A stretch of DNA of 64,000 nt from Azolla caroliniana (taxonomy: Eukaryota; Plantae; Polypodiophyta): positions 124,001 through 188,000 of the forward strand of contig JBHGNT010000039.1 in the NCBI GenBank assembly GCA_043228905.1, in the 5' to 3' direction. This document shows positions 6,001-26,500 of the stretch, piece by piece; within the stretch, counting starts at the first letter, position 1; each line of letters begins with the position of its first letter. The position numbers and the translations under genes are program-made. Under the pieces are notes generated by a model. It was not told the origin of the DNA and ran no database searches. It was given only the letters and a program-made list of their open reading frames with translations.

Positions 6001-9000
6001 TTCGATTCGAATGTTTGAACACAAAAATCCGATATCACACGAGCCAGGTATGAACATTGTAATTTACCTACTAGCTCTTCTCAACTCCCTCCTCAAATTT
6101 GCTAATTTCGTCATGTCTCTCGACCTGAGTTTCAAAATCTTGATTTTTTAATTCCATATCATAGCTAGCGTTGTTAGCTTCGATTCGCATGTTTGTACAC
6201 AAAAATCCGATATCACACTCGCTAGGTATGAACATTTTAATTTACTCAAGGGCTCCTCTCACCTCACTCCTCAAATTTGCTAATTTCGTCATGTCTCTTG
6301 ACCTGAGTTTCAAAATCTTGATTTTTTATTCCATATCATAGCTAGCGTTGTTAGCTTCGATTCGCATGTTTGAACACAAAAATCCGATATCACACGAGCC
6401 AGGTATGAACATTTTAATTCACTCACGCAATCTTCCAACCTCACTCCTCAAATTTGCTAATTTCGTCATGTCTCTCGACCTTAGTTTCAAAATCTTGATT
6501 TTTTAATTCCATATCATAGCTAGCGTTGTTAGCTTCGATTCGCATGTTTGAACACAAAAATCCGATATCACACGAGTTAGGTATCAACATTTTTATTTAC
6601 TCAAGGGTTCCTCTCAACTCCCTCGTCAAGGTTGCTAATTTCGTCATATCTCTCGACCTGAGTTTCAAAATCTTGATTTTTTAAATCCATATCATAGCTA
6701 GCTTTGTTGGCTTCGATTCGCATGTTTGAACACAAAAATCCGATATCACACGAGCCAGGTATGAACATTGTAATTTACCTACTAGCTCTTCTCAACTCCC
6801 TCCTCAAATTTGCTAATTTCGTCATGTCTCTCCACCTGAGTTTCAAAATCTTGATTTTTTAATTCCATATCATAGCTAGCGTTGTTAGCTTCGATTCGCA
6901 TGTTTGTACACAAAAATCCGATATCACACTCGCTAGGTATGAACATTTTAATTTACTCAAGGGCTTCTCTCAACTCACCCCTCAAACTTGCTAATTTCTT
7001 CATGTCTCTCGACCTGAGTTTCAAAATCTTGATTTTTTAATTCCATATCATAGCTAGCATTGTTAGCTTTGATTCGCATGTTTGAACACAAAAATCCGAT
7101 ATCACACGAGCCAGGTATGAACATTTTAATTTACTCAAGGGCTCCTCTCAACTCCCTCCTCAAATTTTGTAATTTCGTCATGTCTCTCGACCTGGGTTTC
7201 AAAATCTTGATTTTTTAATTCCATATCATAGCTAGCGTTGTTAGCTTCGATTCGCATGTTTGAACACAAAAATCCGATATCACACTCGCTAGGTATGAAC
7301 ATTTTAATTTACTCAAGGGCTCCTCTCAACTCACTCCTCAAATTTGCTAATTTCGTCATGTCTCTCGACCTTAGTTTCAAAATCTTGATTTTTTAATTCC
7401 ATACCATAGCTAGCGTTGTTAGCTTCGATTTGCATGTTTGAACACAAAAATCCGATATCACACTCGCTAGGTATGAACATTTTAATTTACTCAAGGGCTC
7501 CTCTCAACTCACTCCTCAAATTTGCTAATTTCGTCATGTCTCTCGACCTGAGTTTCAAAATCTTGATTTTTTAATTCCATATGATAGCTAGCGTTGTTAG
7601 CTTCGATTCGCATGTTTGAACACAAAAATCCGATATCACACGTGCTAGGTATAACCATTTTAATTTAATCAAGGGCTCCTCTCAACTCCCTCGTCAAGGT
7701 TGCTAATTTCGTCATATCTCTCGACCTGAGTTTCAAAATCTTGATTTTTTAAATCCATATCATAGCTAGCGTTGTTGGCTTCGATTCGCATGTTTGAACA
7801 CAAAAATCCGATATCACACGAGCCAGGTATGAACATTGTAATTTACCTACTAGCTCTTCTCAACTCCATCCTCAAATTTGGTAATTTCGTCATGTCTCTC
7901 GACCTGAGTTTCAAAATCTTGATTTTTTAATTCCATATCATAGCTAGCGTTGTTAGCTTCGATTCGCATGTTTGAACACAAAAATCCGATATCACACGAG
8001 CTAGGTATGAACATTTTTATTTACTCAAGGGCTCCTCTCAACTCGCTCCTCAAATTTTGTAATTTCGTCATGTCTCTCGACCTGGGTTTCAAAATCTTGA
8101 TTTTTTAATTCCATATCATAGCTAGCGTTGTTAGCTTCGATTCGCATGTTTGTAGACAAAAATCCGATATCACACGAGCCAGGTATGAACATTGTAATTT
8201 ACCTACTAGCTCTTCTCAACTCCCTCATCAAATTTGGTAATTTCGTCATGTCTCTCGACCTGAGTTTCAAAATCTTGATTTTTTAATTCCATATCATAGC
8301 TAGCGTTGTTAGCTTCGATTCGCATGTTTGTACACAAAAATCCGATATCACACTCGCTAGGTATGAACATTTTAATTTACTCAAGGGCTCCTCTCACCTC
8401 ACTCCTCAAATTTGCTAATTTCGTCATGTCTCTTGACCTGAGTTTCAAAATCTTGATTTTTTATTCCATATCATAGCTAGCGTTGTTAGCTTCGATGCGC
8501 ATGTTTGAACACAAAAATCCGATATCACACGAGCCAGGTATGAACATTTTAATTTACTCAAGGGCTCCTCTCAACTTCCTCCTCAAATTTGCTAATTTCG
8601 TCATGTCTCTCGACCTTAGTTTCAAAATCTTGATTTTTTAATTCCATATCATAGCTAGCGTTGTTAGCTTCGATTCGCATGTTTGAACACAAAAATCCGA
8701 TATCACACGAGTTAGGTATCAACATTTTTATTTACTCAAGGGTTCCTCTCAACTCCCTCGTCAAGGTTGCTAATTTCGTCATATCTCTCGACCTGAGTTT
8801 CAAAATCTTGATTTTTTAAATCCATATCATAGCTAGCGTTGTTGGCTTCGATTCGCATGTTTGAACACAAAAATCCGATATCACACGAGCCAGGTATGAA
8901 CATTGTAATTTACCTACTAGCTCTTCTCAACTCCCTCCTCAAATTTGCTAATTTCGTCATGTCTCTCGACCTGAGTTTCAAAATCTTGATTTTTTAATTC

Positions 9001-11876
9001 CATATCATAGCTAGCGTTGTTAGCTTCGATTCGCATGTTTGTACACAAAAATCCGATATCACACTCGCTAGGTATGAACATTTTAATTTACTCAAGGGCT
9101 CCTCTCACCTCACTCCTCAAATTTGCTAATTTCGTCATGTCTCTTGACCTGAGTTTCAAAATCTTGATTTTTTATTCCATATCATAGCTAGCGTTGTTAG
9201 CTTCGATTCGCATGTTTGAACACAAAAATCCGATATCACACGAGCCAGGTATGAACATTTTAATTCACTCACGCAATCTTCCAACCTCACTCCTCAAATT
9301 TGCTAATTTCGTCATGTCTCTCGACCTTAGTTTCAAAATCTTGATTTTTTAATTCCATATCATAGCTAGCGTTGTTAGCTTCGATTCGCATGTTTGAACA
9401 CAAAAATCCGATATCACACGAGTTAGGTATCAACATTTTTATTTACTCAAGGGTTCCTCTCAACTCCCTCGTCAAGGTTGCTAATTTCGTCATATCTGTC
9501 GACCTGAGTTTCAAAATCTTGATTTTTTAAATCCATATCATAGCTAGCTTTGTTGGCTTCGATTCGCATGTTTGAACACAAAAATCCGATATCACACGAG
9601 CCAGGTATGAACATTGTAATTTACCTACTAGCTCTTCTCAACTCCCTCCTCAAATTTGCTAATTTCGTCATGTCTCTCCACCTGAGTTTCAAAATCTTGA
9701 TTTTTTAATTCCATATCATAGCTAGCGTTGTTAGCTTCGATTCGCATGTTTGTACACAAAAATCCGATATCACACTCGCTAGGTATGAACATTTTAATTT
9801 ACTCAAGGGCTTCTCTCAACTCACCCCTCAAACTTGCTAATTTCTTCATGTCTCTCGACCTGAGTTTCAAAATCTTGATTTTTTAATTCCATATCATAGC
9901 TAGCATTGTTAGCTTTGATTCGCATGTTTGAACACAAAAATCCGATATCACACGAGCCAGGTATGAACATTTTAATTTACTCAAGGGCTCCTCTCAACTC
10001 CCTCCTCAAATTTTGTAATTTCGTCATGTCTCTCGACCTGGGTTTCAAAATCTTGATTTTTTAATTCCATATCATAGCTAGCGTTGTTAGCTTCGATTCG
10101 CATGTTTGAACACAAAAATCCGATATCACACGAGCTAGGTATGAACATTTTAATTTACTCAAGGGCTCCTCTCAACTCCCTCCTCAAATTTTGTAATTTC
10201 GTCATGTCTCTCGACCTGGGTTTCAAAATCTTGATTTTTTAATTCCATATCATAGCTAGCGTTGTTAGCTTTGATTCGCATGTTTGAACACAAAAATCCG
10301 ATATCACACGAGCCAGGTATGAACATTTTAATTTACTCAAGGGCTCCTCTCAACTCCCTCCTCAAATTTTGTAATTTCGTCATGTCTCTCGACCTGGGTT
10401 TCAAAATCTTGATTCTTTAATTCCATATCATAGCTAGCGTTGTTAGCTTCGATTCGCATGTTTGAACACAAAAATCCGATATCACACGAGCTAGGTATGA
10501 ACATTTTAATTTACTCAAGGGCTCCTCTCAACTCCCTCCTCAAATTTTGTAATTTCGTCATGTCTCTCGACCTGAGTTTCAAAATCTTGATTTTTTAATT
10601 CCATATCATAGCTAGCGTTGTTAGCTTCGATTCGCATGTTTGTACACAAAAATCCGATATCACACTCGCTAGGTATAAACATTTTAATTTACTCAATAGC
10701 TCTTCTCAACTCCCTCCTGAAATTTGGAAATTTCGTCATGTCTCTTGACCTGAGTTTCAAAATCTTGATTTTTTAATTCCATATCATAGCTAGCGTTGTT
10801 AGCTTCGATTCGCATGTTTGAACACAAAAATCCGATATCACACGAGCCAGGTATGAACATTTTAATTTACTCAAGGGCTCCTCTCAACTCCCTCCTCAAA
10901 TTTTGTAATTTCGTCATGTCTCTCGACCTTAGTTTCAAAATCTTGATTTTTTAATTCCATATCATAGCTAGCGTTGTTAGCTTCGATTCGCATGTTTGTA
11001 CACAAAAATCTGATATCACACTCGCTAGGTATGAACATTTTAATTTACTCAAGGGCTCCTCTCAACTCACTCCTCAAACTTGCTAATTTCTTCATGTCTC
11101 TCGACCTGAGTTTCAAAATCTTGATTTTTTAATTCCATATCATAGCTAGCGTTGTTAGCTTCGATTCGCATGTTTGAACACAAAAATCCGATATCACACG
11201 AGCCAGGTATGAACATTTTAATTTACTCAAGGGCTCCTCTCAACTCTCTCCTCAAATTTGCTAATTTCGTCATGTCTCTCGACCTTAGTTTCAAAATCTT
11301 GATTTTTTAATTCCATATCATAGCTAGCGTTGTTAGCTTCGATTCGCATGTTTGAACACAAAAATCCGATATCACACGAGTTAGGTATCAACATTTTTAT
11401 TTACTCAAGGGTTCCTCTCAACTCCCTCGTCAAGGTTGCTAATTTCGTCATATCTCTCGACCTGAGTTTCAAAATCTTGATTTTTTAAATCCATATCATA
11501 GCTAGCGTTGTTGGCTTCGATTCGCATGTTTGAACACAAAAATCCGATATCACACGAGCCAGGTATGAACATTGTAATTTACCTACTAGCTATTCTCAAC
11601 TCCCTCCTCAAATTTGGTAATTTCATCATGTCTCTCGACCTGAGTTTCAAAATCTTGATTTTTTAATTCCATATCATAGCTAGCGTTGTTAGCTTCGATT
11701 CGCATGTTTGTACACAAAAATCCGATATCACACTCACTAGGTATGAACATTTTAATTTACTCAAGGGCTCCTCTCAACTCACTCCTCAAACTTGCTAATT
11801 TCTTCATGTCTCTCGACCTGAGTTTCAAAATCTTGATTTTTTAATTCCATATCATAGCTAGCGTTGTTAGCTTCGA
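1..11876. repeat. 178-bp satellite tandem array, left block (~67 monomers), putative centromeric/pericentromeric satellite
   Basis: The monomer anchor ATGAACATT/ATCAACATT recurs at 1, 179, 356 and 534 (period 178, occasionally 177). Conserved core: TTTCAAAATCTTGATTTTTTAATTCCATATCATAGCTAGCGTTGTTAGCTTCGATTCGCATGTTTGAACACAAAAATCCGATATCACAC. The array ends at ...AGCTTCGA (11876). A centromeric role is inferred from monomer size and organisation only. Confidence 0.98.
3700..10100. repeat. Higher-order repeat: 20-mer (3557 bp) followed by a 16-mer (2846 bp); boundaries approximate
   Basis: Rare variants recur at +3557: ATACCAT 3844/7401, CATATG 4021/7578, GTAGAC 4595/8152, TTCGATG 4934/8491. Others recur at +2846: GCTTTG 6701/9547, CTCCAC 6830/9676. 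Confidence 0.85.
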
Positions 11877-11882
11877 GATCAT

Positions 11883-13089
11883 AGCAAAGGTATTGGTGGA
11901 AGAACATGTATAAAGATGTCGCGGAGTTCACAGAAAGCTGCGAGAAATGCCAAGTCTACTCCGGGGTCCGACACCGAGATGAGCTGCATCCAACATTCTC
12001 ACCGACAATCAACTTCAAGTGGATGGTCGACATTGTAGCTATGCCGACCGGGATTGGACAAAAGAAATACTTGGTGTTAGCTCGAGAAGATCTCACAAAC
12101 CAAGTTGAAGGTCGAGCGCTTCGGAGGAAAACGTGTGCCGCGGTGTGCCAATTTCTTTTGGAAGAAGTGTTTTGTAGGTACGGCTGCGTAGGACAAGTGA
12201 TTGCGGACCGGGGAGAACTCGACTCGGACAAAGCTAGGGGATTCTTCGCCAAACATGGAGTTCGGTTAACGTTGACAACGGCCTACAATCCGGAGGCCAA
12301 CGGGAAGATCGAACGAGGACATAGTCCGATCGTGAAAGCACTTGCGAAGGCATGCGACGGAAGGGTGAAGGATTGGCCACAAATGCTTCCGTATGCACTA
12401 TGGGCGGATCGGACGACGCATAGCTCCGTGACCGGTTATATGCCGGCAGAACTCATGACCGGACAAGCACCGGTAATGCCAACGGAAACCGCAATCGCGA
12501 CATGGACAATACTACCGTGGAAGGAAGAGATGAGCCGGGAAGAACTACTAGCGGTCCGGATACGACAACTGGAGGGAAGACCGAAAGATGTAGCGGAAGC
12601 GTCACGCCGACAACAAGAAGCACGGTTCCGGAACAAAAGCCGGTTCGACACAAAGCACCGACTACGACCGAGGAGGATTGAAGAAGGAGATTGGGTGATC
12701 GTCTATGATAGTAGCTTGGACCATCAACATACAACGATGCGGAAATTCGCGAAAAGGTGGTTCGGGCCGTACGAGGTTCGGAAGGTCTTCGACAACGGGA
12801 CGTACCGACTGTCCGAGTTGGATGGAACAATACTACGAGTGCCTATAGCCGGGAAGCGGGTGAAGATTTTCAAGAAGCGGACCGACGACAAACCTTATGT
12901 GATCCAAGTCGAGGTCGACAACGAGGAGCAATCGGACGAAGACCACAATGATGCGGGAAGCGAAGAAAGTGGATTACAACTCATAGTCGACATAAGGGGA
13001 GATTCGGAGGAAGCTTCGGATGAAGACGGATACGAAGAATCAAGAACTTCGGCACATACCGGAGGATGTGCGGGTTTGGAGGGGGCGAG
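11883..13089 (+). mobile_element. 5'-truncated second copy of the element's internal region (integrase + PPT), sharing the LTR at 13090-13990
   Basis: 11883-13990 matches 18451-20558 at a constant offset of 6568 bp. All ORF-track translations over the two copies are identical. Confidence 0.96.
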
Positions 13090-13102
13090 TGTCGTAGTGT
13101 AG
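11906..13102 (+). pseudogene. Truncated pol fragment: integrase core + C-terminus (398 aa), lacking the two His of the HHCC finger
   Basis: Identical to the last 398 aa of ORF2. Begins at an internal Met 23 bp after the truncation point. Confidence 0.9.
13078..13089 (+). other. Polypurine tract of the truncated copy
   Basis: Identical GGAGGGGGCGAG abutting the LTR at 13090. Confidence 0.85.
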
Positions 13103-13174
13103 GTTGCACACTATGTGGAAATTATATTTTTGTCCCTCCGGATAGAGAATGGAGTGCTCGGTGAGAACCGGAAG

Positions 13175-13340
13175 AAAACGGCATACCGGCAAGAAGGAAG
13201 AAAACGGCATACCGGCAAGGAGGGAAAACGGCATACCGGCAAGAAGGAAGAAAACGGCATACCGGCAAGGAGGGAAAACGGCATACCGGCAAGGAGGAAA
13301 AACGGCATACCGGCAAGGAAGAAAACGGCATACCGGCAAG
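13175..13340 (+). repeat. Minisatellite in LTR U3: 7 copies of AAAACGGCATACCGGCAAG with purine spacers
   Basis: Cores at 13175, 13201, 13225, 13251, 13275, 13299 and 13322 (periods 26, 24, 26, 24, 24, 23). Confidence 0.95.
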
Positions 13341-13702
13341 GAAGAGCCGGATAAAGAGACATAAATGTAAAAAGAAAGGAAATACTCACTACTGCGCAGG
13401 GCGTGATTCGAACTCTGCACCTCCACGTTGACAAACCCCAACCTTACCATTACATTAACTTATCTTAAGTGTTTTAAATATAGATTTAATACGTATAAGA
13501 CCTTTATTTATGCATACCTTTATTAAAAGGTAAATCGTGTATTTTTTTAATATATGAAAAAGAAAAACGCGAGACACTAAAAATAACTCATGCACATCTA
13601 GCGTGCATGAGCCCTATACTTAGGAAATAAAAAGCATCACATGCACATTTAGTGGACATGAACACTAAAAAAAAAAGCATGAAGCCATGCTTAGCTCTTC
13701 CT

Positions 13703-13716
13703 TCCTTATATAAGGA
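13703..13716. promoter_or_regulatory. Candidate LTR TATA box inside a perfect 14-bp palindrome
   Basis: TCCTTATATAAGGA contains TATATAA on both strands and lies ~275 bp before the LTR end. The copy in the other LTR is at 20271-20284. Confidence 0.6.
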
Positions 13717-13994
13717 GGAGAGAAATATGTAAAGGGTTGTTGATTATTTGGATTAAGTATTAATTAATACAAAAATTATTCGTGGGATTCACGATTTATA
13801 CGTCTACTTCTCTCTTAACACCCTAAGTACCAATTAATATAGTATACTCGTGTGATTCACGAGTTTCTTATCTTTCTCTTCGTTATTTATTCATAATTAA
13901 TCTCTATCTCACGAACTTCTTTCTCCTAGTCCAAGACCTCTGTGGTTCCCACCCGACTCACGCAACGATCCGGAGCCGAAAGGCACGACACAGT

Positions 13995-14012
13995 TGGTGA
14001 ACCCGACGTGAA
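13995..14012 (+). other. Primer binding site complementary to the 3' end of plant cytosolic tRNA-Trp(CCA)
   Basis: TGGTGAACCCGACGTGAA is the reverse complement of TTCACGTCGGGTTCACCA, the 3' 18 nt of plant tRNA-Trp as recalled from Arabidopsis. It lies 4 nt (CAGT) after the LTR end. Confidence 0.88.
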
Positions 14013-14052
14013 GACGGGTGGCAAGGAGGTGGAGGCTCAACAAGCTAACAAT

Positions 14053-16068
14053 ATGATGGCGATGTTCGAACGGATGCTTCAAGAACAACGCACGATGTCG
14101 GAGATTTCGGCATCAGTAGAGCGGCTCGTGCAACGCAACGGGCAATTTAATGGTAAGGATGTGTCGCGATATTTGCAGGACTACAAGGCGGAGATGCTCC
14201 GGTGCCGGGCTTCGGAAGGACTGCAAGTGACATCCTTTAACCGGGTGGCGACCGACGGGCTTCAAGGGAGTATCCACGGGTTGCAACAACAAAATCCGAC
14301 GTGGGAAGCATTCGAAGGGGCGTTAAAGACCACGTTTGCCATCGAGGACTCCTCCAAGGCAACGCGGAGGGGATTCGAGGATTGGGTGGAAACGTCAGGT
14401 AAGGGGCTGAAGGTCCTCGAAGTGTTTTCGACATTCGAAAGTCGGTTCGGGAGGTTGTCCACGAGAGATCAAACTATTCTTGCACCGGACAAAGTCATCA
14501 TGTTTTTGCGAGCTGTGGACGTCCGGGACCGGAAAGATCTCGGAGTGCTTCTTGAGGACACGACCACCGAAAGCGGCCTCACCGAAACATGGGAAAGCGT
14601 GCGGGATATCGTCGCGCGGTACACGAAGAGGGGGCAATGGCTTGCCAACGAAGAAAAGAGGGTTTCGGAACCGATTCCGAAACCGAGAACGGGACTGGAA
14701 GACCATCAACCGAGGGCTCGGGAGATTACGGCCGAGAAGGGAGTCGACGCGTCTACGGTGGAGCAGCTGCTGAAGGAGATGGAGAATCTAAAGATCGCGA
14801 TGGTGAAGAAGTCGGATGATCGCCCCACAAGCTCCAAATATACGGATCGACGGTGCATATGGTGCGATAGCGCCGAACACGATCGGAGGGATTGCGACGA
14901 CCATAAGGAGGCGCTACGACGGGATCTCATCTACTACGAGGGAAACCGGATTCATTCGATGGACTCTCGAAAGCCACTCCGACCGAACTTCCGGAAAGGC
15001 GGCATGAAGAAGGTGCTCGAGGAGGAGTTAGCGGCAAGAAGCAACTATGCGACAACCGCGGGAATATGTGTCGGGGAGTCAACGGGAGCGAAGGCGTCTT
15101 TCTGGCCGGAGGTGCTAGGAAACACCGAGAAAACCGACTCCAACGATATCCGAAACACCGCGGAAGGCGTCCGGGAAGCTACGGGATGGGAGTGCCCTGT
15201 CGACAAGAATAGCATATACGCCCTGTGTCAATTACATGAGGTGTATGTGGACGAGAAACGACGGCGCACGGAGGATGCGGCCGGACCATCGAAGATACCG
15301 GAAAGTTGGAACTCCGGAGGTAAGGGAAAAGAAAAGGCGACTCCGGCATTCAAGCTCGCCTCGGACATAGAACAACAAACCGACTTGAAAAGAGTGTTCG
15401 AGGAAAGAATCTTGGATAGCCGGGTCGATTTTTCGCTGCGGGAACTACTCGGAATAGCGAAGAAGGAGTTTCACGATCTTCTCGTGGATCTCGTGAAAAG
15501 GAAGAGACAAAGTACGGAGGAAAATGCTCCAAGGGTGAATGCAAATACCGTTTCAATGAACGACACCGAAGTGGAAGGCGAAATTCCGAACTCCCACTAT
15601 ACAAGGCCACACTGGGCACGTGCGACCACGGAGACTCCGGTCCGAATCGGCAACATCAAAGAACCCGTGCTAGCATTGATTGATCACGGATCGGAGATCA
15701 ACTTGATGTCCAAGGAGTTCTACCGAAAGGGGAAGTGGCCTATAAACACCAACCATGGATGGAAGATTCGGGCAGCCACGAAAACGACAGAAGACCTATT
15801 TGCGGCTTGTCCGGATGTGACGGTAAAGATCGGGGATGTAGAAATTGACCAAAATTTCTTTGTGCAGGATGAGGTTTCACATGCTGTCATCCTCGGCCAA
15901 CCCTTTATCACGGCTTCACGGATGGAGACGAAGGTGCTCGATAGTGGTGCGGCTTTTGCGCGAATTCGGAGCCAAAACGGAGGGAAATCCGTCCAATTCC
16001 TAACGGTGCCGGCAAATCACGAAAGGAACAGGAGGGAACTCTTGTCCCAAGTGAGAATGGATTTTTAA
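14053..16068 (+). CDS. gag: ORF1: Gag (capsid-like region + CCHC zinc knuckle) fused to aspartic protease, 671 aa from the first ATG
   Basis: The ORF track opens at GTG 13942 inside the LTR; the first in-frame ATG after the PBS is 14053. CIWCDSAEHDRRDC is a CX2CX4HX4C knuckle (14854-14895). Retropepsin motifs ALIDHGSEINLM (DHG at 15682-15690) and VILGQPF are present. Confidence 0.92.
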   Translation: MMAMFERMLQEQRTMSEISASVERLVQRNGQFNGKDVSRYLQDYKAEMLRCRASEGLQVTSFNRVATDGLQGSIHGLQQQNPTWEAFEGALKTTFAIEDSSKATRRGFEDWVETSGKGLKVLEVFSTFESRFGRLSTRDQTILAPDKVIMFLRAVDVRDRKDLGVLLEDTTTESGLTETWESVRDIVARYTKRGQWLANEEKRVSEPIPKPRTGLEDHQPRAREITAEKGVDASTVEQLLKEMENLKIAMVKKSDDRPTSSKYTDRRCIWCDSAEHDRRDCDDHKEALRRDLIYYEGNRIHSMDSRKPLRPNFRKGGMKKVLEEELAARSNYATTAGICVGESTGAKASFWPEVLGNTEKTDSNDIRNTAEGVREATGWECPVDKNSIYALCQLHEVYVDEKRRRTEDAAGPSKIPESWNSGGKGKEKATPAFKLASDIEQQTDLKRVFEERILDSRVDFSLRELLGIAKKEFHDLLVDLVKRKRQSTEENAPRVNANTVSMNDTEVEGEIPNSHYTRPHWARATTETPVRIGNIKEPVLALIDHGSEINLMSKEFYRKGKWPINTNHGWKIRAATKTTEDLFAACPDVTVKIGDVEIDQNFFVQDEVSHAVILGQPFITASRMETKVLDSGAAFARIRSQNGGKSVQFLTVPANHERNRRELLSQVRMDF

Positions 16069-16122
16069 AGCGGACTGTTGCGGAGTGGGGAAGTGATAGT
16101 CCGAGAAGCCCTGATACCCCAC
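16059..16122 (+). promoter_or_regulatory. Predicted -1 programmed ribosomal frameshift element (slippery heptamer + H-type pseudoknot)
   Basis: G_GAT_TTT at 16059-16065 directly before the ORF1 stop, then a 5-nt spacer. Stem 1: CGGACTGTTGC (16071-16081) with GTGATAGTCCG (16093-16103). Stem 2: loop GTGGGG (16085-16090) with CCCCAC (16117-16122). Confidence 0.8.
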
Positions 16123-19100
16123 ACAGGAAGAAAACTCTCGGAGCAAAACAAGTACGAATCGGGCCGGATGGGGCATCTACGTACACGGTCGTAACCGGAG
16201 GAATGAAGAAACAATACCGACAAGTGGAGGATAAGTTACGGTCGGCATCAATAATAAAAGAAGACGAAGAAATCGTGGGAGTGATCGAGGAAGTGTTCTA
16301 TGGGAATACACTACAACGGCTTGAAGAGCTTGCGGAAGATAAAAGCCAAGGGAACCGGGTAGTCCCGGTGGAATCGGTCGAGATGTACGAGATCGTTGCG
16401 AAAATGGGGCCGGATGCGCTCCGCAAAGAAGAAGCAATGGTAAGTACGAAATACAAGACCGTGGAGAAGAAGGTAAAACCGGCCGCGGGACCACTACCCG
16501 CCGATAGCGAACAAAAGAGGAAAGAAGTCTCGGGAGATCCGACACTTCGGAAGACCGTGGATATCGGACATGCCTTCACAGATGAGACCCGGAAGAAACT
16601 TCGGATCGGTGGAGGTGGGTTCCTCTTACAAGAAGAAGAAAAACGGTTTCGAGAGATGTTGGAGCAACATGGCAAAGCATTCGCGTTCACATCGAGGGAG
16701 ATCGGATGCATTGATCCAAAGATAGTGGAGCCGATGGTGATTTTCACGATTGATCATGTACCGTGGAACCTGAAGCCGATTCCGGTGCCACGGGCGCATA
16801 TTCCGAAAGTCATCGACTTGCTCAAGGAGAAGGTGGCGATGGGGATTCTAGAGCCATCAAGTGCTCCGTACTCAAATCGATGGTTTACGGTTCCGAAGAA
16901 GAATGGGTCACTCCGATTCATCCAAGACTTGCAACCGGTGAACAAGGTCACGATCCGGAACTCGGGAGTCGGTCCGATAGTGGACGAATTCGCGGAAGCT
17001 TTTGCCGGACGTGCGATATACTCCATCGGGGACCTATACTCGGGGTATGACCAATTCCAACTAGCCGTGGAGAGCCGAGACATCACTACCATGCGGACAC
17101 CGATAGGACTAGTTCGAATGTGCACACTACCACAAGGAGCGACAAACTCGGTTGCACATATGATGAACGCGATGAACAAGGTGCTTCGAGATTGCATCCC
17201 GGAGATAACGATGCCGTTTCTAGATGACATTCCGATGAAAGGATGCGCGGTGGAAGAAAAAGATGAGACTATGGATGATCGGGGATGCCGAAAGTTCGTG
17301 GTCGACCATATTCATGATTGCGAGAAAGTGTTGCGAAAGCTAGAAGATGTGCACCTAACACTTTCCGGGGAGAAATCGGCATTCGGGCAAGAAGAAATAT
17401 TGGTGGTCGGACATCTATGTGGACCCTACGGCCGAAGACCGTCACCAACAAAGATCGATGCGATTCAAGCTATGAAGGAAGTATGTGAGTCAACATCGGA
17501 AGTCCGAAGGTTTCTGGGTGCGTGTGCATTCTATCACATATGGATTCCGCACTATGCACATATAGCGGACCCGCTCTATCACTTGTTGCGGAAAGGTAAG
17601 AAATTCGAGTGGAAACCGGAACACACTAAAGCCATGAGGAAGCTCAAGAAGACACTATGGAGGGCGGAATCACTTAAGAAGCCAAGCTACGAGCGGCCAA
17701 TCATAGTAACGGTTGATACAAGTCCAACCGGTATCGGGTGGGTCATCAATCAAGCCGACTCGGATGGTTCGCGGTATCCGATCCGATTTGGAGCAAAGGT
17801 CCTCAACGAAAGGCAACGCGGATATGCACAAGTCAAAAGAGAGTTGTGGGGAGTCGTGTCGGCGATAAAATCGGATCGGGATTATTTGATCGGAGCTGAA
17901 GTGGTGATCGAGACGGATTGTCTTCCGATACTCGGGATGATGCGGTGTTGTACGATACCGGATGTGGCTATGCTAAGGTGGATTGCATATGTCAAGTCAC
18001 TTAATCCGGAGGTTCGACACATCTCGGGGAAGGACAACGCGGTAGCGGACATGTTATCGAGGGCGCGGTTTGAAGACGACATAACCGAATCAGATAATGA
18101 AGAAGTTTCTGAAGACTACTTCACGTCAGAACACATATGCCGAGTGAACGTGATCCGAGAATTCCGGGAAGAAGAATACGAGGGGGAAACCTTGATGATC
18201 GGGAAGATGCTACAAGAGGTCGAGGATTCATCCAATGATAAAGAAAGGAGAGCCGAGATCCGAAGGAAGAAGAGGCAAGTCCAAAAGTTCTTTTTGGAAA
18301 ACGGTTTAATATGGAGGACGCCGAAAAGACCGGATGGGATACCACTTCGAGTAGTCGGGACGAAAGAGCAACGAAACCGGATAATGTCCGAGTTCCACGA
18401 ATCCGATTGGGCTGGACATCGAGGAACATGGGCAACTTTTGTGAAAATCAAGCAAAGGTATTGGTGGAAGAACATGTATAAAGATGTCGCGGAGTTCACA
18501 GAAAGCTGCGAGAAATGCCAAGTCTACTCCGGGGTCCGACACCGAGATGAGCTGCATCCAACATTCTCACCGACAATCAACTTCAAGTGGATGGTCGACA
18601 TTGTAGCTATGCCGACCGGGATTGGACAAAAGAAATACTTGGTGTTAGCTCGAGAAGATCTCACAAACCAAGTTGAAGGTCGAGCGCTTCGGAGGAAAAC
18701 GTGTGCCGCGGTGTGCCAATTTCTTTTGGAAGAAGTGTTTTGTAGGTACGGCTGCGTAGGACAAGTGATTGCGGACCGGGGAGAACTCGACTCGGACAAA
18801 GCTAGGGGATTCTTCGCCAAACATGGAGTTCGGTTAACGTTGACAACGGCCTACAATCCGGAGGCCAACGGGAAGATCGAACGAGGACATAGTCCGATCG
18901 TGAAAGCACTTGCGAAGGCATGCGACGGAAGGGTGAAGGATTGGCCACAAATGCTTCCGTATGCACTATGGGCGGATCGGACGACGCATAGCTCCGTGAC
19001 CGGTTATATGCCGGCAGAACTCATGACCGGACAAGCACCGGTAATGCCAACGGAAACCGCAATCGCGACATGGACAATACTACCGTGGAAGGAAGAGATG

Positions 19101-19670
19101 AGCCGGGAAGAACTACTAGCGGTCCGGATACGACAACTGGAGGGAAGACCGAAAGATGTAGCGGAAGCGTCACGCCGACAACAAGAAGCACGGTTCCGGA
19201 ACAAAAGCCGGTTCGACACAAAGCACCGACTACGACCGAGGAGGATTGAAGAAGGAGATTGGGTGATCGTCTATGATAGTAGCTTGGACCATCAACATAC
19301 AACGATGCGGAAATTCGCGAAAAGGTGGTTCGGGCCGTACGAGGTTCGGAAGGTCTTCGACAACGGGACGTACCGACTGTCCGAGTTGGATGGAACAATA
19401 CTACGAGTGCCTATAGCCGGGAAGCGGGTGAAGATTTTCAAGAAGCGGACCGACGACAAACCTTATGTGATCCAAGTCGAGGTCGACAACGAGGAGCAAT
19501 CGGACGAAGACCACAATGATGCGGGAAGCGAAGAAAGTGGATTACAACTCATAGTCGACATAAGGGGAGATTCGGAGGAAGCTTCGGATGAAGACGGATA
19601 CGAAGAATCAAGAACTTCGGCACATACCGGAGGATGTGCGGGTTTGGAGGGGGCGAGTGTCGTAGTGTAG
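16065..19670 (+). CDS. pol: ORF2: Pol (reverse transcriptase, RNase H, integrase), probably expressed by -1 frameshift from ORF1; first ATG at 16203
   Basis: RT motifs: WFTVPKKNGSLRFIQD, DLYSGYDQ, LPQG, FLDD (17217-17228). RNase H motifs: VDTS, KRELWG, ETDC, NAVADMLSR. Integrase: HHCC (H..AGH..CEKC), D-D-E (MVDIV/ADRG/IERGH) and GPY motif (19332-19340). The frame is open from 15945 and is -1 relative to ORF1. Start given at the predicted shift site. Confidence 0.93.
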   Translation, partial: LKRTVAEWGSDSPRSPDTPHRKKTLGAKQVRIGPDGASTYTVVTGGMKKQYRQVEDKLRSASIIKEDEEIVGVIEEVFYGNTLQRLEELAEDKSQGNRVVPVESVEMYEIVAKMGPDALRKEEAMVSTKYKTVEKKVKPAAGPLPADSEQKRKEVSGDPTLRKTVDIGHAFTDETRKKLRIGGGGFLLQEEEKRFREMLEQHGKAFAFTSREIGCIDPKIVEPMVIFTIDHVPWNLKPIPVPRAHIPKVIDLLKEKVAMGILEPSSAPYSNRWFTVPKKNGSLRFIQDLQPVNKVTIRNSGVGPIVDEFAEAFAGRAIYSIGDLYSGYDQFQLAVESRDITTMRTPIGLVRMCTLPQGATNSVAHMMNAMNKVLRDCIPEITMPFLDDIPMKGCAVEEKDETMDDRGCRKFVVDHIHDCEKVLRKLEDVHLTLSGEKSAFGQEEILVVGHLCGPYGRRPSPTKIDAIQAMKEVCESTSEVRRFLGACAFYHIWIPHYAHIADPLYHLLRKGKKFEWKPEHTKAMRKLKKTLWRAESLKKPSYERPIIVTVDTSPTGIGWVINQADSDGSRYPIRFGAKVLNERQRGYAQVKRELWGVVSAIKSDRDYLIGAEVVIETDCLPILGMMRCCTIPDVAMLRWIAYVKSLNPEVRHISGKDNAVADMLSRARFEDDITESDNEEVSEDYFTSEHICRVNVIREFREEEYEGETLMIGKMLQEVEDSSNDKERRAEIRRKKRQVQKFFLENGLIWRTPKRPDGIPLRVVGTKEQRNRIMSEFHESDWAGHRGTWATFVKIKQRYWWKNMYKDVAEFTESCEKCQVYSGVRHRDELHPTFSPTINFKWMVDIVAMPTGIGQKKYLVLAREDLTNQVEGRALRRKTCAAVCQFLLEEVFCRYGCVGQVIADRGELDSDKARGFFAKHGVRLTLTTAYNPEANGKIERGHSPIVKALAKACDGRVKDWPQMLPYALWADRTTHSSVTGYMPAELMTGQAPVMPTETAIATWTILPWKEEMSREELLAVRIRQLEGRPKDVAEASRRQQEARFRNKSRFDTKHRLRPRRIEEGDWVIVYDSSLDHQHTTMRKFAKRWFGPYEVRKVFDNGTYRLSELDGTILRVPIAGKRVKIFKKRTDDKPYVIQVEVDNEEQSDEDHNDAGSEESGLQLIVDIRGDSEEASDEDGYEESRTSAHTGGCAGLEGASVVV
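19646..19657 (+). other. Polypurine tract (plus-strand primer)
   Basis: GGAGGGGGCGAG abutting the TG start of the 3' LTR. Confidence 0.85.
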
Positions 19671-20558
19671 GTTGCACACTATGTGGAAATTATATTTTTG
19701 TCCCTCCGGATAGAGAATGGAGTGCTCGGTGAGAACCGGAAGAAAACGGCATACCGGCAAGAAGGAAGAAAACGGCATACCGGCAAGGAGGGAAAACGGC
19801 ATACCGGCAAGAAGGAAGAAAACGGCATACCGGCAAGGAGGGAAAACGGCATACCGGCAAGGAGGAAAAACGGCATACCGGCAAGGAAGAAAACGGCATA
19901 CCGGCAAGGAAGAGCCGGATAAAGAGACATAAATGTAAAAAGAAAGGAAATACTCACTACTGCGCAGGGCGTGATTCGAACTCTGCACCTCCACGTTGAC
20001 AAACCCCAACCTTACCATTACATTAACTTATCTTAAGTGTTTTAAATATAGATTTAATACGTATAAGACCTTTATTTATGCATACCTTTATTAAAAGGTA
20101 AATCGTGTATTTTTTTAATATATGAAAAAGAAAAACGCGAGACACTAAAAATAACTCATGCACATCTAGCGTGCATGAGCCCTATACTTAGGAAATAAAA
20201 AGCATCACATGCACATTTAGTGGACATGAACACTAAAAAAAAAAGCATGAAGCCATGCTTAGCTCTTCCTTCCTTATATAAGGAGGAGAGAAATATGTAA
20301 AGGGTTGTTGATTATTTGGATTAAGTATTAATTAATACAAAAATTATTCGTGGGATTCACGATTTATACGTCTACTTCTCTCTTAACACCCTAAGTACCA
20401 ATTAATATAGTATACTCGTGTGATTCACGAGTTTCTTATCTTTCTCTTCGTTATTTATTCATAATTAATCTCTATCTCACGAACTTCTTTCTCCTAGTCC
20501 AAGACCTCTGTGGTTCCCACCCGACTCACGCAACGATCCGGAGCCGAAAGGCACGACA
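19658..20558 (+). repeat. 3' LTR (901 bp)
   Basis: TGTCGT...ACGACA, preceded by a PPT and followed immediately by satellite. No differences from 13090-13990 seen by eye, including the A10 run and the minisatellite copy number. Confidence 0.96.
19743..19908 (+). repeat. Same 7-copy minisatellite in the 3' LTR
   Basis: Same units at offset +6568. Confidence 0.95.
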
Positions 20559-23500
20559 ACGTTATTTTCAAAATCTTGATTTTTTAATTCCATATCATAG
20601 CTAGCGTTGTTAGCTTCGATTCGCATGTTTGAACACAAAAATCCGATATCACACGAGCCAGGTATGAACATTTTAATTTACTCAAGGGCTCCTCTCAACT
20701 CACTCCTCAAATTTGCTAATTTCGTCATGTCTCTCGACCTTAGTTTCAAAATCTTGATTTTTTAATTCCATATCATAGCTAGCGTTGTTAGCTTCGATTC
20801 GCATGTTTGAACACAAAAATCCGATATCACACGTGCTAGGTATAACCAATTTAATTTACTCAAGGGCTCCTCTCAACTCACTCCTCAAATTTGCTAATTT
20901 CGTCATGTCTCTCGACCTTAGTTTCAAAATCTTCATTTTTTAATTCCATATCATAGCTAGCGTTGTTAGCTTCGATTCACATGTTTGAACACAAAAATCC
21001 GATATCACACGAGTTAGGTATCAACATTTTTATTTACTCAAGGGTTCCTCTCAACTCCCTCATCAAGGTTGCTAATTTCGTCATATCTCTCGACCTGAGT
21101 TTCAAAATCTTGATTTTTTAAATCCATATTATAGCTAGCGTTGTTGGCTTCGATTCGCATGTTTGAACACAAAAATCCGATATCATACGAGCCAGGTATG
21201 AACATTGTAATTTACCTACTAGCTCTTCTCAACTCCCTCCTCAAATTTGCTAATTTCGTCATGTCTCTCGACCTTAGTTTCAAAATCTTGATTTTTTAAT
21301 TCCATATCATAGCTAGCGTTGTTAGCTTCGATTCGCATGTTTGAACACAAAAATCCGATATCACACGTGCTAGGTATAACCAATTTAATTTACTCAAGGG
21401 CTCCTCTCAACTCACTCCTCAAATTTGGTAATTTCGTCATGTCTCTCGACCTTAGTTTCAAAATCTTGATTTTTTAATTCCATATCATAGCTAGCGTTGT
21501 TAGCTTCGATTCGCATGTTTGGACTCAAAAATCCGATATCACACGAGTTAGGTATCAACATTTTTATTTACTCAACGGTTCCTCTCAACTCCCTCGTCAA
21601 GGTTGCTAATTTCGTCATATCTCTCGACCTGAGTTTCAAAATCTTGATTTTTTAAATCCATATCATAGCTAGCGTTGTTGGCTTCGATTCGCATGTTTGA
21701 ACACAAAAATCCGATATCACACGAGCCAAGTATGAACATTGTAATTTACCTACTAGCTCTTCTCAACTCCCTCCTCAAATTTGCTAATTTCGTCATGTCT
21801 CTCGACCTTAGTTTCAAAATCTTGATTTTTTAATTCCATATCATAGCTAGCGTTGTTAGCTTCGATTCGCATGTTTGGACACAAAATTCCGATATCACAC
21901 GAACCAGGTATGAACATTTTAATTCACTCACGCGCTCTTCCAACCTCACTCCTCAAATTTGGTAATTTCTTCATGTCTCTCGACTTGAGTTGCAAAATCT
22001 TGATTTTTTAATTCCATATCATAGCTAACGTTGTTAGCTTCGATTCGCATGTTTGAACACAGAAATCCGATATCACACGAGCCAGGTATGAACATTTTAA
22101 TTTACTCAAGGGCTCCTCTCAACTCCCTCCTCAAATTTTGTAATTTCGTCATGTTTCTCGACCTGGGTGTCAAAATCTTGATTTTTTAATTCCATATCAT
22201 AGCTAGCGTTGTTAGCTTCGATTCGCATGTTTGAACACAAAAATCTGATATCACACTCGCTAGGTATAACCATTTTAATTTACTCAAGGGCTCCTCTCAA
22301 CTCACTCCTCAAATTTGGTAATTTCGTCATGTCTCTCGACCTTAGTTTCAAAATCTTGATTTTTTAATTCCATATCATAGCTAGCGTTGTTAGCTTCGAT
22401 TCGCATGTTTGAACACAAAAATCCGATATCACACGAGCCAGGTATGAACCAATTTAATTTACTCAAGGGCTCCTCTCAACTCCCTCCTCAAATTTGCTAA
22501 TTTCGTCATGTCTCTTGACCTGAGTTTCAAAATCTTGATTTTTTAATTCCATATCATAGCTAGCGTTGTTAGCTTCGATTCGCATGTTTGAACACAAAAA
22601 TCCGATATCACACGAGCCAGGTATGAACATTTTAATTTACTCAAGGGCTCCTCTCAACTCCCTCCTCAAATTTGGTAATTTCGTCATGTCTCTTGACCTG
22701 AGTTTCAAAATCTTGATTTTTTAATTCCATATCATAGCTAGCGTTGTTAGCTTCGATTCGCATGTTTGAACACAAAAATCCGATATCACACGTGCTAGGT
22801 ATAACCAATTTAATTTACTCAAGGGCTCCTCTCAACTCACTCCTCGAATTTGGTAATTTCGTCATGTCTCTCGACCTTAGTTTCAAAATCTTGATTTTTT
22901 AATTCCATATCATAGCTAGCGTTGTTAGCTTCGATTCGCATGTTTGAACACAAAAATCCGATATCACACGAGCCAGGTATGAACATTTTAATTTACTCAA
23001 GGGCTCCTCTCAACTCACTCCTCAAATTTGCTAATTCCGTCATGTCTCTCGACCTTAGTTTCAAAATCTTGATTTTTTAATTCCATATCATAGCTAGCGT
23101 TGTTAGCTTCGATTCGCATGTTTGAACACAAAAATCCGATATCACACGTGCTAGGTATAACCAATTTAATTTACTCAAGGGCTCCTCTCAACTCACTCCT
23201 CGAATTTGGTAATTTCGTCATGTCTCTCGACCTTAGTTTCAAAATCTTGATTTTTTAATTCCATATCATAGCTAGCGTTGTTAGCTTCGATTCGCATGTT
23301 TGAACACAAAAATCCGATATCACACGAGTTAGGTATCAACATTTTTATTTACTCAAGGGTTCCTCTCAACTCCCTCGTCAAGGTTGCTAATTTCGTCATA
23401 TCTCTCGACCTGAGTTTCAAAATCTTGATTTTTTAATTCCATATCATAGCTAGCGTTGTTAGCTTCGATTCGCATGTTTGTACACAAATATCCGATATCA

Positions 23501-26500
23501 CACGAGCTAGGTATGAACATTTTAATTTACTCAAGGGCTCCTCTCAACTCACTCCTCAAATTTGCTAATTTCGTCATGTCTCTCGACGTTAGTTTCAAAA
23601 TCTTGATTTTTTAATTCCATATCATAACTAGCGTTGTTAGCTTCGATTCGCATGTTTGAACACAAAAATCCGATATCACACGAGCCAGGTATGAACATTT
23701 TAATTTACTCAAGGGCTCCTCTCAACTCCCTCCTCAAATTTGCTAATTTCGTCATGTCTCTCGACCTTAGTTTCAAAATCTTGATTTTTTAAATCCATAT
23801 CATAGCTAGCGTTGTTGGCTTCGATTCGCATGTTTGAACACAAAAATCCGATATCACACGCGCTAGGTATGAACATTTTTATTTACTCTAGGGCTTTTGT
23901 CAACTCCCTCGTCAAGGTTGCTAATTTCGTCATGTCTCTCGACCTTAGTTTCAAAATCTTGATTTTTTTAATTCCATATCATAGCTAGCGTTGTTAGCTT
24001 CGATTCGCATGTTTGAACACAAAAATCCGATATCACACGAGCTAGGTATGAACATTTTTATTTACTCAAGGGCTCCTCTCAACTCCCTCGTCAAGGTTGC
24101 TAATTTCGTCATGTCTCTCGACCTGAGTTTCAAAATCTTGATTTTTTAATTCCATATCATAGCTAACGTTGTTAGCTTCGATTCGCATGTTTGAACACAG
24201 AAATCCGATATCACACGAGCTAGGTATGAACATTTTAATTTACTCAAGGGCTCCTCTCAACTCCCTCCTCAAATTTTGTAATTTCGTCATGTCTCTCGAC
24301 CTGGGTTTCAAAATCTTGATTTTTTAATTCCATATCATAGCTAGCGTTGTTAGCTTCGATTCGCATGTTTGAACACAAAAATCCCATATCACACTCGCTA
24401 GGTATCACCATTTTAATTTACTCAAGGGCTCCTCTCAACTCACTCCTCAAATTTTGTAATTTCGTCATGTCTCTCGACCTTAGTTTCAAAATCTTGATTT
24501 TTTAATTCCATATCATAGCTAGCGTTGTTAGCTTCGATTCGCATGTTTGAACACAAAAATCCGATATCACACGAGCCAGGTATGAACCAATTTAATTTAC
24601 TCAAGGGCTCCTCTCAACTCCCTCTTCAAATTTGCTAATTTCGTCATGTCTCTCGACCTTAGTTTCAAAATCTTGATTTTTTAATTCCATATCATAGCTA
24701 GCGTTGTTAGCTTCGATTCGCATGTTTGAACACAAAAATCCGATATCACACGAGCCAGGTATGAACAGTGTAATTTACTCAAGGGCTCTTCTCAACTCAC
24801 TCCTCAAATTTGCTAATTTCGTCATGTCTCTCGACGTTAGTTTCAAAATCTTGATTTTTTAATTCCATATCATAGCTAGCGTTGTTAGCTTCGATTCGCA
24901 TGTTTGAACACAAAAATCCGATATCACACGAGCCAGGTATGAACATTTTAATTTACTCAAGGGCTCCTCTCAACTCACTCCTCAAATTTGCTAATTTCGT
25001 CATGTCTCTCGACCTTAGTTTCAAAATCTTGATTTTTTAATTCCATATCATAGCTAGCGTTGTTAGCTTCGATTCGCATGTTTGAACACAAAAATCCGAT
25101 ATCACACGAGCCAGGTATGAACATTTTAATTTACTCAAGGGCTCCTCTCAACTCCCTCCTCAAATTTGGTAATTTCGTCATGTCTCTTGACCTGAGTTTC
25201 AAAATCTTGATTTTTTAAATCCATATCATAGCTAGCGTTGTTGGCTTCGATTCGCATGTTTGTACACAAATATCCGATATCACACGAGCTAGGTATGAAC
25301 ATTTTAATTTACTCAAGGGCTCCTCTCAACTCACTCCTCAAATTTGCTAATTTCGTCATGTCTCTCGACGTTAGTTTCAAAATCTTGATTTTTTAATTCC
25401 ATATCATAGCTAGCGTTGTTAGCTTCGATTCGCATGTTTGAACATAAAAATCCGATATCACACGAGCCAGGTATGAACATTTTAATTTACTCAAGGGCTC
25501 CTCTCAACTCCCTCCTCAAATTTGGTAATTTCATCATGTCTCTTGACCTGAGTTTCAAAATCTTGATTTTTTAATTCCATATCATAGCTAGCGTTGTTAG
25601 CTTCGATTCGCATGTTTGAACACAAAAATCCGATATCACACGAGCTAGGTATGAACATTTTAATTTACTCAAGGGCTCCTCTCAACTCCCTCCTCAAATT
25701 TGGTAATTTCGTCATGTCTCTTGACCTTAGTTTCAAAATCTTGATTTTTTAATTCCATATCATAGCTAGCGTTGTTAGCTTCGATTCGCATGTTTGAACA
25801 CAAAAATCCGATATCACACGAGCTAGGTATGAACATTTTTATTTACTCAAGGGCTCCTCTCAACTCCCTCGTCAAGGTTGCTAATTTCGTCATGTCTCTC
25901 GACCTTAGTTTCAAAATCTTGATTTTTTTAATTCCATATCATAGCTAGCGTTGTTAGCTTCGATTCGCATGTTTGAACACAAAAATCTGATATCACACGA
26001 GCTAGGTATGAACATTTTTATTTACTCAAGGGCTCCTCTCAACTCCCTCCTCAAATTTGGTAATTTCGTCATGTCTCTCGACTTTAGTTTCAAAATCTTG
26101 ATTTTTTAATTCCGTATCATAGCTAGCGTTGTTAGCTTCGATTCACATGTTTGAACACAAAAATCCGATATCACACGAGCTAGGTATGAACATTTCTATT
26201 TACTCAAGGGCTCCTCTCAACTCCCTCGTCAAGGTTGCTAATTTCGTCATGTCTCTCGACCTTAGTTTCAAAATCTTGATTTTTTTAATTCCATATCATA
26301 GCTAGCGTTGTTAGCTTCGATTCGCATGTTTGAACACAAAAATCCGATATCACACGAGCTAGGTATGAACATTTTTATTTACTCAAGGGCTCCTCTCAAC
26401 TCCCTCGTCAAGGTTGCTAATTTCGTCATGTCTCTCGACCTGAGTTTCAAAATCTTGATTTTTTAATTCCATATCATAGCTAGCGTTGTTAGCTTCGATT

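What the first reader, a model, noticed from the sequence alone, without database searches (positions are those of the whole stretch)
11883..20558. Tandem shared-LTR retrotransposon (1.3 units of a 6568-bp LTR+internal repeat) inside the satellite
Seen: the upstream LTR is preceded not by host DNA but by PPT + integrase. 11883-13990 is a 2108-bp direct repeat of 18451-20558 with no visible differences. There is no target-site duplication around the full element (GCGAG left, ACGTT right). Inference: this is the remnant of an LTR-int-LTR-int-LTR dimer. It could arise by unequal LTR-LTR recombination, by recombination of a 6568-bp 1-LTR circle into a resident LTR, or by reverse transcription of a read-through RNA, followed by a 5' truncation. 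The element may be undergoing the same tandem amplification and deletion as the satellite.
Basis: partly seen in the sequence, partly recalled or inferred. Interest (0 to 1): 0.7.

Follow-up and report, generated by a model that had tools for sequence, protein, structure and literature searches.

The report
Retrotransposon re-copied its own 3' end
Inside a 178-base satellite array a plant jumping gene is preceded by an exact 2.1-kb copy of its own tail, likely left by host DNA break repair that also likely fused two different satellite blocks, which makes it a truncated example of a known and common kind of tandem retrotransposon.

Summary
In detail: 11883-13990 equals 18451-20558 (0 of 2108 differences), giving integrase-PPT-LTR-internal-LTR in a 178-bp satellite. 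The element is a Phygy-type non-chromovirus Ty3/gypsy of a seed-free plant (tRNA-Trp primer site, no chromodomain, right flank ACGT fitting the 4-bp NCGN target rule, so the expected duplication is ACGT, not ACGTT). New here: the left end is a non-homologous join with a 6-bp filler that may be templated from satellite 27 bp away (p 0.02-0.05); the satellite left and right of the element are different variant blocks, and the ACGT target variant occurs in 0 of 66 left and 31 of 242 right monomers, so the original left flank is gone; one rare allele is shared by both copies. Best reading: host break repair copied this element's own 3' end over its 5' end (one event 0.45; full dimer then deletion 0.27). 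Sibling-copy recombination, retrotransposition of a dimer or circle, and misassembly remain open; no contig bridging the left junction was shown in 4 runs, which proves nothing. Shared-LTR tandems are published as common in plants.

The parts
1..11876 (.). 178-bp satellite, left variant block (66 whole monomers scored); lacks 8 variants that have 10 or more copies on the right
11877..11882 (.). 6-bp filler at the satellite/integrase junction; 11878-11885 matches satellite 11851-11858 (possibly templated, with 3 bases of microhomology to the element)
   Evidence: 45 of 2304 (50-bp search window) and 118 of 2304 (100-bp) possible fillers do as well
11883..13089 (+). Duplicated 3' internal piece: integrase from the middle of the zinc-binding domain to the purine tract (1207 bp)
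13078..13089 (+). Polypurine tract before the shared LTR
   Evidence: sequence
13090..13990 (+). Shared (middle) LTR, 901 bp, identical to the 3' LTR; holds a 24-25-bp minisatellite at 13174-13342
13995..14012 (+). Primer-binding site complementary to the 3' end of tRNA-Trp(CCA)
   Evidence: 30 of 30 loci tested are tRNA-Trp genes
13930..16068 (+). Open frame 1 (712 aa stop to stop): gag-like with DUF4100 and an aspartic-protease-like motif (motif recognised by eye)
15945..19670 (+). Open frame 2 (1241 aa stop to stop): RT, RNase H, integrase, no chromodomain hit; overlaps frame 1 in the -1 frame and ends 13 bases inside the 3' LTR
18451..20558 (+). Second copy of the 2108-bp repeat: integrase, purine tract (19646-19657), 3' LTR (19658-20558)
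20559..20562 (.). ACGT: surviving right half of the likely 4-bp NCGN target duplication; a satellite variant found only right of the element
20559..64000 (.). 178-bp satellite, right variant block (242 whole monomers scored)

Best explanation
A Phygy-type gypsy retrotransposon in a 178-bp satellite carries an exact 2108-bp copy of its own integrase-PPT-LTR tail in front of it, likely made in one host break-repair event in which a broken end likely paired through the 901-bp LTR with this element's 3' LTR, likely copied 1207 bp past it, and was likely end-joined with a short filler to a different satellite block. Shown: the exact repeat, the anatomy, the integrase-type right end (LTR then ACGT), the filler, the phase shift and the different satellite variants on the two sides. 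Inferred: (1) one integrase-mediated insertion at an ACGT site of the right-type satellite; (2) a break in or left of the 5' LTR; (3) strand invasion of the 3' LTR on the sister chromatid or the same molecule and synthesis beyond it (or, read from the other side, a satellite end that invades the integrase gene and switches template at the LTR); (4) polymerase-theta-type end joining that lost the original left flank with its target duplication. The product has no function of its own; the unit 13090-20558 keeps both LTRs, primer site, purine tract and two open frames and may still be able to transpose (untested).
For: 0 of 2108 differences although the family is abundant and polymorphic: 114-117 places in 6741 bp show another letter at 10% or more of laid depth in each of 4 runs, and at 6 shown sites in the duplicated integrase piece the window's letter is usually the minority. 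8 of the 40 rows shown have the window's letter nearly absent in all 4 runs; 5 of 7 scored are nonsynonymous against 5 of 26 other sites (p 0.016), as expected of recent unselected changes; one (12915/19483) is in both copies. At the rate of the 7 in the 4460-bp unduplicated part, two independently ageing 2108-bp copies would differ at about 6.6 sites (P of none 0.001). Filler of 6 bp with an 8-base match 27 bp upstream (p 0.02-0.05); templated insertions mark TMEJ, and tandem duplications arise by TMEJ of aborted homologous repair in C. elegans (PMC8654963, abstract and passages). Satellite blocks differ: cross-boundary nearest-monomer distance 4.46 against at most 2.56 at 123 boundaries in the right array; 0 shared runs of 3 or more near-identical monomers across the element against 6 within the left and 36 within the right; 9 exclusive variants against at most 5; ACGT variant 0 of 66 left, 31 of 242 right. 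One event explains identity, filler and lost target duplication together.
Against: The product is the same as that of a full dimer followed by a deletion, and nothing here tells them apart. Copying from the LTR does not by itself explain loss of all right-type satellite on the left. The filler match is short and found after the fact. The best single change point in satellite variants is monomer 74 (21992), 8 monomers right of the element; the element (66) ranks fourth on a plateau from 66 to 78. The rare alleles were judged against runs not known to be of this individual, from contigs that drop rare variants, and from 40 of 126 rows; they could belong to a local subfamily, which would let identical sibling copies explain the repeat. 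The shared rare allele is a single site. No contig bridging 11876/11883 was shown in 4 of 4 runs.
Confidence: 0.45

Rival explanations
1. Two steps: unequal exchange between the 3' and 5' LTRs of sister copies made a full LTR-int-LTR-int-LTR dimer, and a later end-joined deletion removed the first LTR, 4460 bp of the first internal part and the left flank.
For: Such dimers are common in plants and come with single-copy and solo-LTR haplotypes at one site (PMC11899658, parts 1-4 of 6 read). A large deletion explains the switch of satellite block directly. Two other out-of-phase deletions in this array show that end joining acts here.
Against: Needs two rare events close in time, with no mutation in either 2108-bp copy since the first. 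No trace of the missing 5' part is in the window.
Confidence: 0.27
2. Two independent, still identical sibling insertions, one in each satellite block, recombined through their LTRs; the left one was also truncated.
For: Explains the switch of satellite block; the family is abundant and at least one other contig joins satellite to the LTR start (X3, 1 contig, among 15 of 41 joint rows shown). Daughters of one master copy are identical at birth (established knowledge).
Against: Needs identity over 1207 bp of integrase including an allele (12915) seen in no laid contig of 4 runs; still needs a separate truncation. PMC11899658 argues from flanks and target duplications that rice tandems come from single insertions.
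Confidence: 0.12
3. The tandem was made in the retrotransposition cycle (read-through RNA, or a 6568-bp one-LTR circle recombining into the resident LTR) and truncated later.
For: Both routes are named as possible in PMC11899658 (introduction and discussion). The unit looks intact.
Against: Nothing in the sequence points to it; a circle from another family member would bring differences; it also needs the later deletion.
Confidence: 0.08
4. Assembly error: two loci from different satellite blocks were joined through the 901-bp LTR, or a chimeric read made the left junction.
For: The satellite type changes at about the element; no contig bridging the left junction was shown.
Against: No N in the window; 55 kb of satellite with higher-order runs is resolved, which needs reads far longer than 901 bp (inference); a misjoin also needs two loci identical over 1207 bp of integrase; a novel filler junction is not what a collapse produces. 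Rice tandems of this form were confirmed by spanning reads (PMC11899658).
Confidence: 0.08

Closest known systems
Tandem LTR-retrotransposons sharing an internal LTR (TLI1, TLI2 and 266 candidates in rice; also Arabidopsis, almond, cotton; Morales-Diaz et al. 2025, PMC11899658, parts 1-4 of 6 read)
   Same: Alternating internal region and LTR with one shared LTR, gypsy superfamily, near-identical copies, origin from one insertion by LTR recombination or in retrotransposition.
   Different: Begins inside integrase rather than with an LTR and has no target duplication, so it falls among the 'degenerated' structures that paper filtered out (38 of 66 in Nipponbare); seed-free plant, Phygy-type lineage, inside a satellite; repair junction readable.
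Phygy lineage, non-chromovirus Ty3/gypsy (Neumann et al. 2019, PMC6317226, passages and one supplementary table row)
   Same: tRNA-Trp primer site, NCGN at the surviving flank, no extra domain or extra ORF, coding sequence fills the internal part.
   Different: 7469 bp is just under the range of the 186 Physcomitrella elements (7656-9968); phylogenetic placement not tested; two open overlapping frames here, where the table gives organisation as not determined.
Host-copied centrophilic transposons in satellite arrays (atlas of 325 genomes, bioRxiv 10.64898/2026.09.17.752431, sections 7 and 9 and passages; ATHILA in Arabidopsis CEN178, PMC10984392, passages)
   Same: Young-looking LTR element in a satellite array, copied or eroded by host recombination after insertion.
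   Different: Their class (i) copies are whole elements with shared target duplications and satellite between them; here a part is copied head to tail through the LTR. That this array is centromeric is not shown. The word Phygy does not occur in the atlas main text.
Tandem duplications by TMEJ of aborted SDSA (Kamp et al. 2021, PMC8654963, abstract and passages)
   Same: Exact head-to-tail copy ending in a non-homologous junction with filler.
   Different: Shown in C. elegans helq-1 mutants at unique DNA; here the invading end would use a dispersed LTR, which is inferred.

Membership tests
Tandem LTR-RT (shared LTR) | Internal sequence, LTR, internal sequence in head-to-tail order with one shared LTR | tested here: met
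Tandem LTR-RT (shared LTR) | Starts and ends with an LTR (strict definition of PMC11899658) | tested here: not met
   starts inside integrase at 11883; so a truncated or degenerate tandem, not a complete one
Tandem LTR-RT (shared LTR) | One target-site duplication around the whole structure (10 of 28 in rice) | tested here: not met
   right flank ACGT, no ACGT at the left end or at that phase in 66 left monomers
Tandem LTR-RT (shared LTR) | Both units from a single insertion | tested here: inconclusive
   0 of 2108 differences and one shared rare allele; identical siblings not excluded
Tandem LTR-RT (shared LTR) | Confirmed by spanning long reads | not testable with these tools
   all 24 runs listed are kept as contigs; none shown spanning
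Ty3/gypsy | Order RT, RNase H, integrase between LTRs with primer site and purine tract | tested here: met
Phygy | Primer site for tRNA-Trp (81% of members) | tested here: met
   30 of 30 loci tested, of 80 listed, are tRNA-Trp(CCA) (table row)
Phygy | 4-bp NCGN target duplication | tested here: inconclusive
   right flank ACGT fits NCGN; the left copy is lost, so the length cannot be read
Phygy | No chromodomain, no additional RNase H, no extra ORF | tested here: met
   no such Pfam hit at E 0.001; the only other frames of 150 aa or more are two antisense frames inside pol
Phygy | Size 7656-9968 bp | tested here: inconclusive
   7469 bp, 187 bp under a range taken from one species
Phygy | RT/RH/INT cluster with the REXdb Phygy clade | not testable with these tools
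   no REXdb profiles held; named relatives are Riccia proteins at about 50-68% identity
Centrophilic element in a centromeric satellite | CENH3 on the array; family enriched in arrays | not testable with these tools
   no genome held; 178-bp array with higher-order runs is only suggestive

The most novel reading that the evidence does not exclude
Host repair inside satellite arrays overwrites a retrotransposon's 5' LTR with its 3' LTR while fusing distant satellite blocks, so LTR elements act as anchors of block-joining rearrangements and their 100% LTR identity is a reset clock, not a recent insertion; here the copy carries at least 8 rare changes yet has identical LTRs. If common, the 'youngest elements sit in the satellite core' pattern would be partly a repair signal.
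Probability: 0.2. Interest if true: 0.55.

Novelty: new member of a known kind. Interest (0 to 1): 0.27.

Why it matters
Modest. Shared-LTR tandems are published as common, and how they form is left open in PMC11899658. This case keeps readable scars (exact copy, filler, lost target duplication, change of satellite block) that point to host repair rather than retrotransposition, in a little-studied lineage and a seed-free plant. It also warns that LTR identity can be reset and that annotators needing a target duplication will miss or misdate such elements. One locus in one assembly cannot carry more than that.

Tried and rejected
No whole genome was held, so no genome-wide search for tandem copies, siblings or the junction. 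Read support: 24 runs listed, all contigs; no RNA holder listed. Laid X1, X2, X3, X5 on 11710-18450 and X1, X3, X7, X5 on 11826-11950: pieces stop at 11876 or start at 11883, none shown bridging; 9583 pieces and 8 loose ends were not shown, contigs drop rare variants and the runs are not known to be this individual, so this is no evidence either way. Simple host tandem duplication of element tail plus satellite: rejected, it would put satellite, not a primer site, after the first LTR and right-type satellite on the left. A 61-bp oversize target duplication (the flanks overlap in phase): rejected, they differ at 3 of the first 9 bases. Nested insertion of a second family member: rejected, no second target duplication and no differences. 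Hi-C ligation scar (filler holds GATC): the element has no GATC at the break. Search for the pre-insertion satellite haplotype: no run of 3 or more near-identical monomers starts at monomers 64-71. Rfam: 0 matches at E 1 in 11800-20700. Frameshift structure: a hairpin folds 5 nt after the start of 16066-16165 but the stretch is no more stable than shuffles (z -0.49). Cluster look-up of 7 relatives named no organism. Our-findings look-ups (5 of 8) gave no note on this element or structure. Paper searches; among the 18 papers holding 'Phygy' (listing only) no title concerns tandems; the kangaroo papers cited by PMC11899658 were not listed and not read. bioRxiv supplements are closed; the atlas's supplements may hold this genome's array and element.
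Full report
Observation. The two stretches 11883-13990 and 18451-20558 are identical over 2108 bases and the match ends exactly there. The rest of the window is a 178-bp satellite and this 8.7-kb interruption is the only departure in base composition or coding frames. The LTRs are 901 bp (13090-13990, 19658-20558) with TG...CA ends. The first LTR has a purine tract and an integrase frame before it and a primer site after it; the second is followed by satellite.

The element. Frame 1 (13930-16068) is gag-like with DUF4100; frame 2 (15945-19670) holds RT, RNase H and integrase with no chromodomain hit. The frames overlap with frame 2 in the -1 phase; a ribosomal frameshift is inferred, and no unusually stable structure follows. 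The primer site 13995-14012 pairs with tRNA-Trp: all 30 loci tested, of 80 listed by a scan with this site plus a T-loop motif, are tRNA-Trp(CCA) genes. Neumann et al. 2019 (PMC6317226; passages; one supplementary row) give for Phygy a 4-bp NCGN target duplication, tRNA-Trp in 81%, no extra domains and 7656-9968 bp. The right flank begins ACGT, which fits; the unit is 7469 bp. So it works like a Phygy element; tree placement was not possible. Named relatives among the 120 listed of 245 hits are Riccia proteins at about 50-68% identity, closer ones are unnamed. Other notes on this genome say fern or moss (unchecked), so I say only seed-free plant.

Are both halves from one element? The family is abundant and variable: 16,848-31,693 contigs per run were laid on 11710-18450, and 114-117 places per run show another letter at 10% or more of depth. 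Of 126 rows 40 were shown. Six lie in the duplicated integrase piece and at these the window's letter is mostly the minority. Eight rows (12915, 14029, 14318, 15883, 16031, 17843, 18231, 18293) have another letter at 99.8% or more of depth in all four runs. Leaving out 1 satellite row, 5 LTR rows and 14029, 5 of 7 of these rare sites are nonsynonymous against 5 of 26 others (Fisher p 0.016; 16031 scored in frame 1 only), as expected for recent unselected changes. Site 12915 is carried by both copies. If the 7 rare changes in the 4460-bp unduplicated part set the clock, two independently ageing 2108-bp copies would differ at about 6.6 sites (P of none 0.001) and two LTRs at 2.8 (P of none 0.06). 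This favours a recent self-copy. Limits: the runs are not known to be this individual, contigs drop rare variants, and a master carrying these changes could have made identical daughters.

The left junction. Satellite stops at 11876, six bases of filler follow, and the element starts at 11883 in the middle of the integrase zinc-binding domain. Five filler bases plus three element bases match the satellite 27 bp upstream; 45 of 2304 possible fillers do as well within 50 bp, 118 of 2304 within 100 bp. That is the pattern of polymerase-theta end joining (PMC8654963, abstract and passages), with weak statistics. The left flank ends 51 nt after the monomer anchor, the right flank starts 9 nt before it, so with a 4-bp duplication the phase is off by 57 nt. 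In Arabidopsis mutation-accumulation lines all 56 large centromeric indels kept the phase (bioRxiv 10.1101/2025.06.02.657473, passages), so this junction is not the ordinary satellite process.

The flanks. 308 monomers were aligned (66 left, 242 right). Left monomers find their nearest neighbour at 1.2 differences on the left and 3.9 on the right. The cross-boundary distance at the element is 4.46 with 60 monomers a side, above all 123 control boundaries in the right array (maximum 2.56), and 4.58 against a maximum of 3.58 at 183 boundaries with 30 a side; no run of three or more near-identical monomers is shared across the element, against 6 within the left and 36 within the right. Nine variants are exclusive to one side against at most 5 in controls. 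The ACGT variant into which the element inserted occurs in 31 of 242 right and 0 of 66 left monomers, so the present left flank is likely not the original one. Against over-reading: the likelihood change point is a plateau over monomers 66-78 with its top at 74, monomers are not independent, and a block boundary is also what a misjoin would give.

Mechanism. The right end is an integrase product; the left end is a repair product; the middle needs one exchange through the LTR. One repair event (pair through the LTR, copy 1207 bp past it, end-join to a distant satellite end) explains identity, filler and the lost duplication at once (0.45). A full dimer by unequal sister exchange and a later deletion gives the same sequence (0.27). 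Recombination of identical siblings (0.12), a read-through or circle route plus deletion (0.08) and misassembly (0.08) remain. A host-made self-copy thus has about 0.7 in all.

Read check. All 24 listed runs are contigs and none holds more than 0.68 of the words. In four runs the pieces shown stop at 11876 or start at 11883 and none bridges the junction; this neither confirms nor refutes it. One contig in run X3 joins satellite to the LTR start, a hint of other insertions of this family in this satellite.

What is known. Morales-Diaz et al. 2025 (PMC11899658; parts 1-4 of 6 read) found 266 candidate shared-LTR tandems in a rice pangenome, 11 each in Arabidopsis and almond and 130 in cotton, confirmed one by spanning reads, set aside 38 of 66 Nipponbare cases as degenerate or complex, and left recombination versus retrotransposition open; they cite the same structures in TRIMs, kangaroo centromeres and yeast (those papers not read). 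The centromere atlas (bioRxiv 10.64898/2026.09.17.752431; sections 7, 9 and passages) reports host-copied transposons in satellite arrays and uses LTR identity as age. Phygy domains were reported enriched in predicted centromeres of a liverwort (PMC12885004, passages). PMC10984392 (passages) describes invasion and purging of ATHILA. I found no description of a Phygy-type tandem (listings); bioRxiv supplements were closed and may bear on this.

Verdict. Real as far as the assembly goes, correctly described, and a truncated new member of a known, common kind. The added value is the set of scars pointing to host repair and the possibility that LTR identity was reset. Interest 0.27.

Noticed in passing
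window 54453/54454 and about 55279: Two out-of-phase monomers in the right satellite (135 and 152 bp; losses of 43 and 26 bp); the first sits at a repeated AGCT. End joining acts in this array besides whole-monomer turnover.
   Followed up: partly
window 16057-16068: Gag-protease frame ends just after GGATTTT with the RT frame open in the -1 phase: a possible frameshift between protease and RT rather than between gag and protease (slippery-site likeness recalled, not tested; downstream fold z -0.49).
   Followed up: partly
window 13174-13342 and 19742-19910: 24-25-bp minisatellite of about 7 copies in the LTR; contigs of runs X3 and X5 skip parts of it, so copy number likely varies in the family.
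   Followed up: no
window 19658-19670: The pol frame reads through the purine tract and stops 13 bases inside the 3' LTR; its last ~70 residues are an acidic tail where chromoviruses carry a chromodomain, and family members have deletions there (joints 12777-13051, 12878-13045).
   Followed up: no
window 1-11876 and 40000-64000: Higher-order satellite runs: periods of 4, 16, 20, 30, 34 and 50 monomers on the left; 18, 57 and 75 on the right, up to 18 monomers long.
   Followed up: partly
run X3, joint 11763 to 13090: A contig joins this satellite to the LTR start, suggesting further insertions of the family in the satellite.
   Followed up: no
L006/L007, L008/L009, L019/L020, L052/L053: Pairs of tRNA-Trp matches 1.47-1.51 kb apart on the same metagenome contigs; a conserved tandem tRNA gene pair in some plant.
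   Followed up: no
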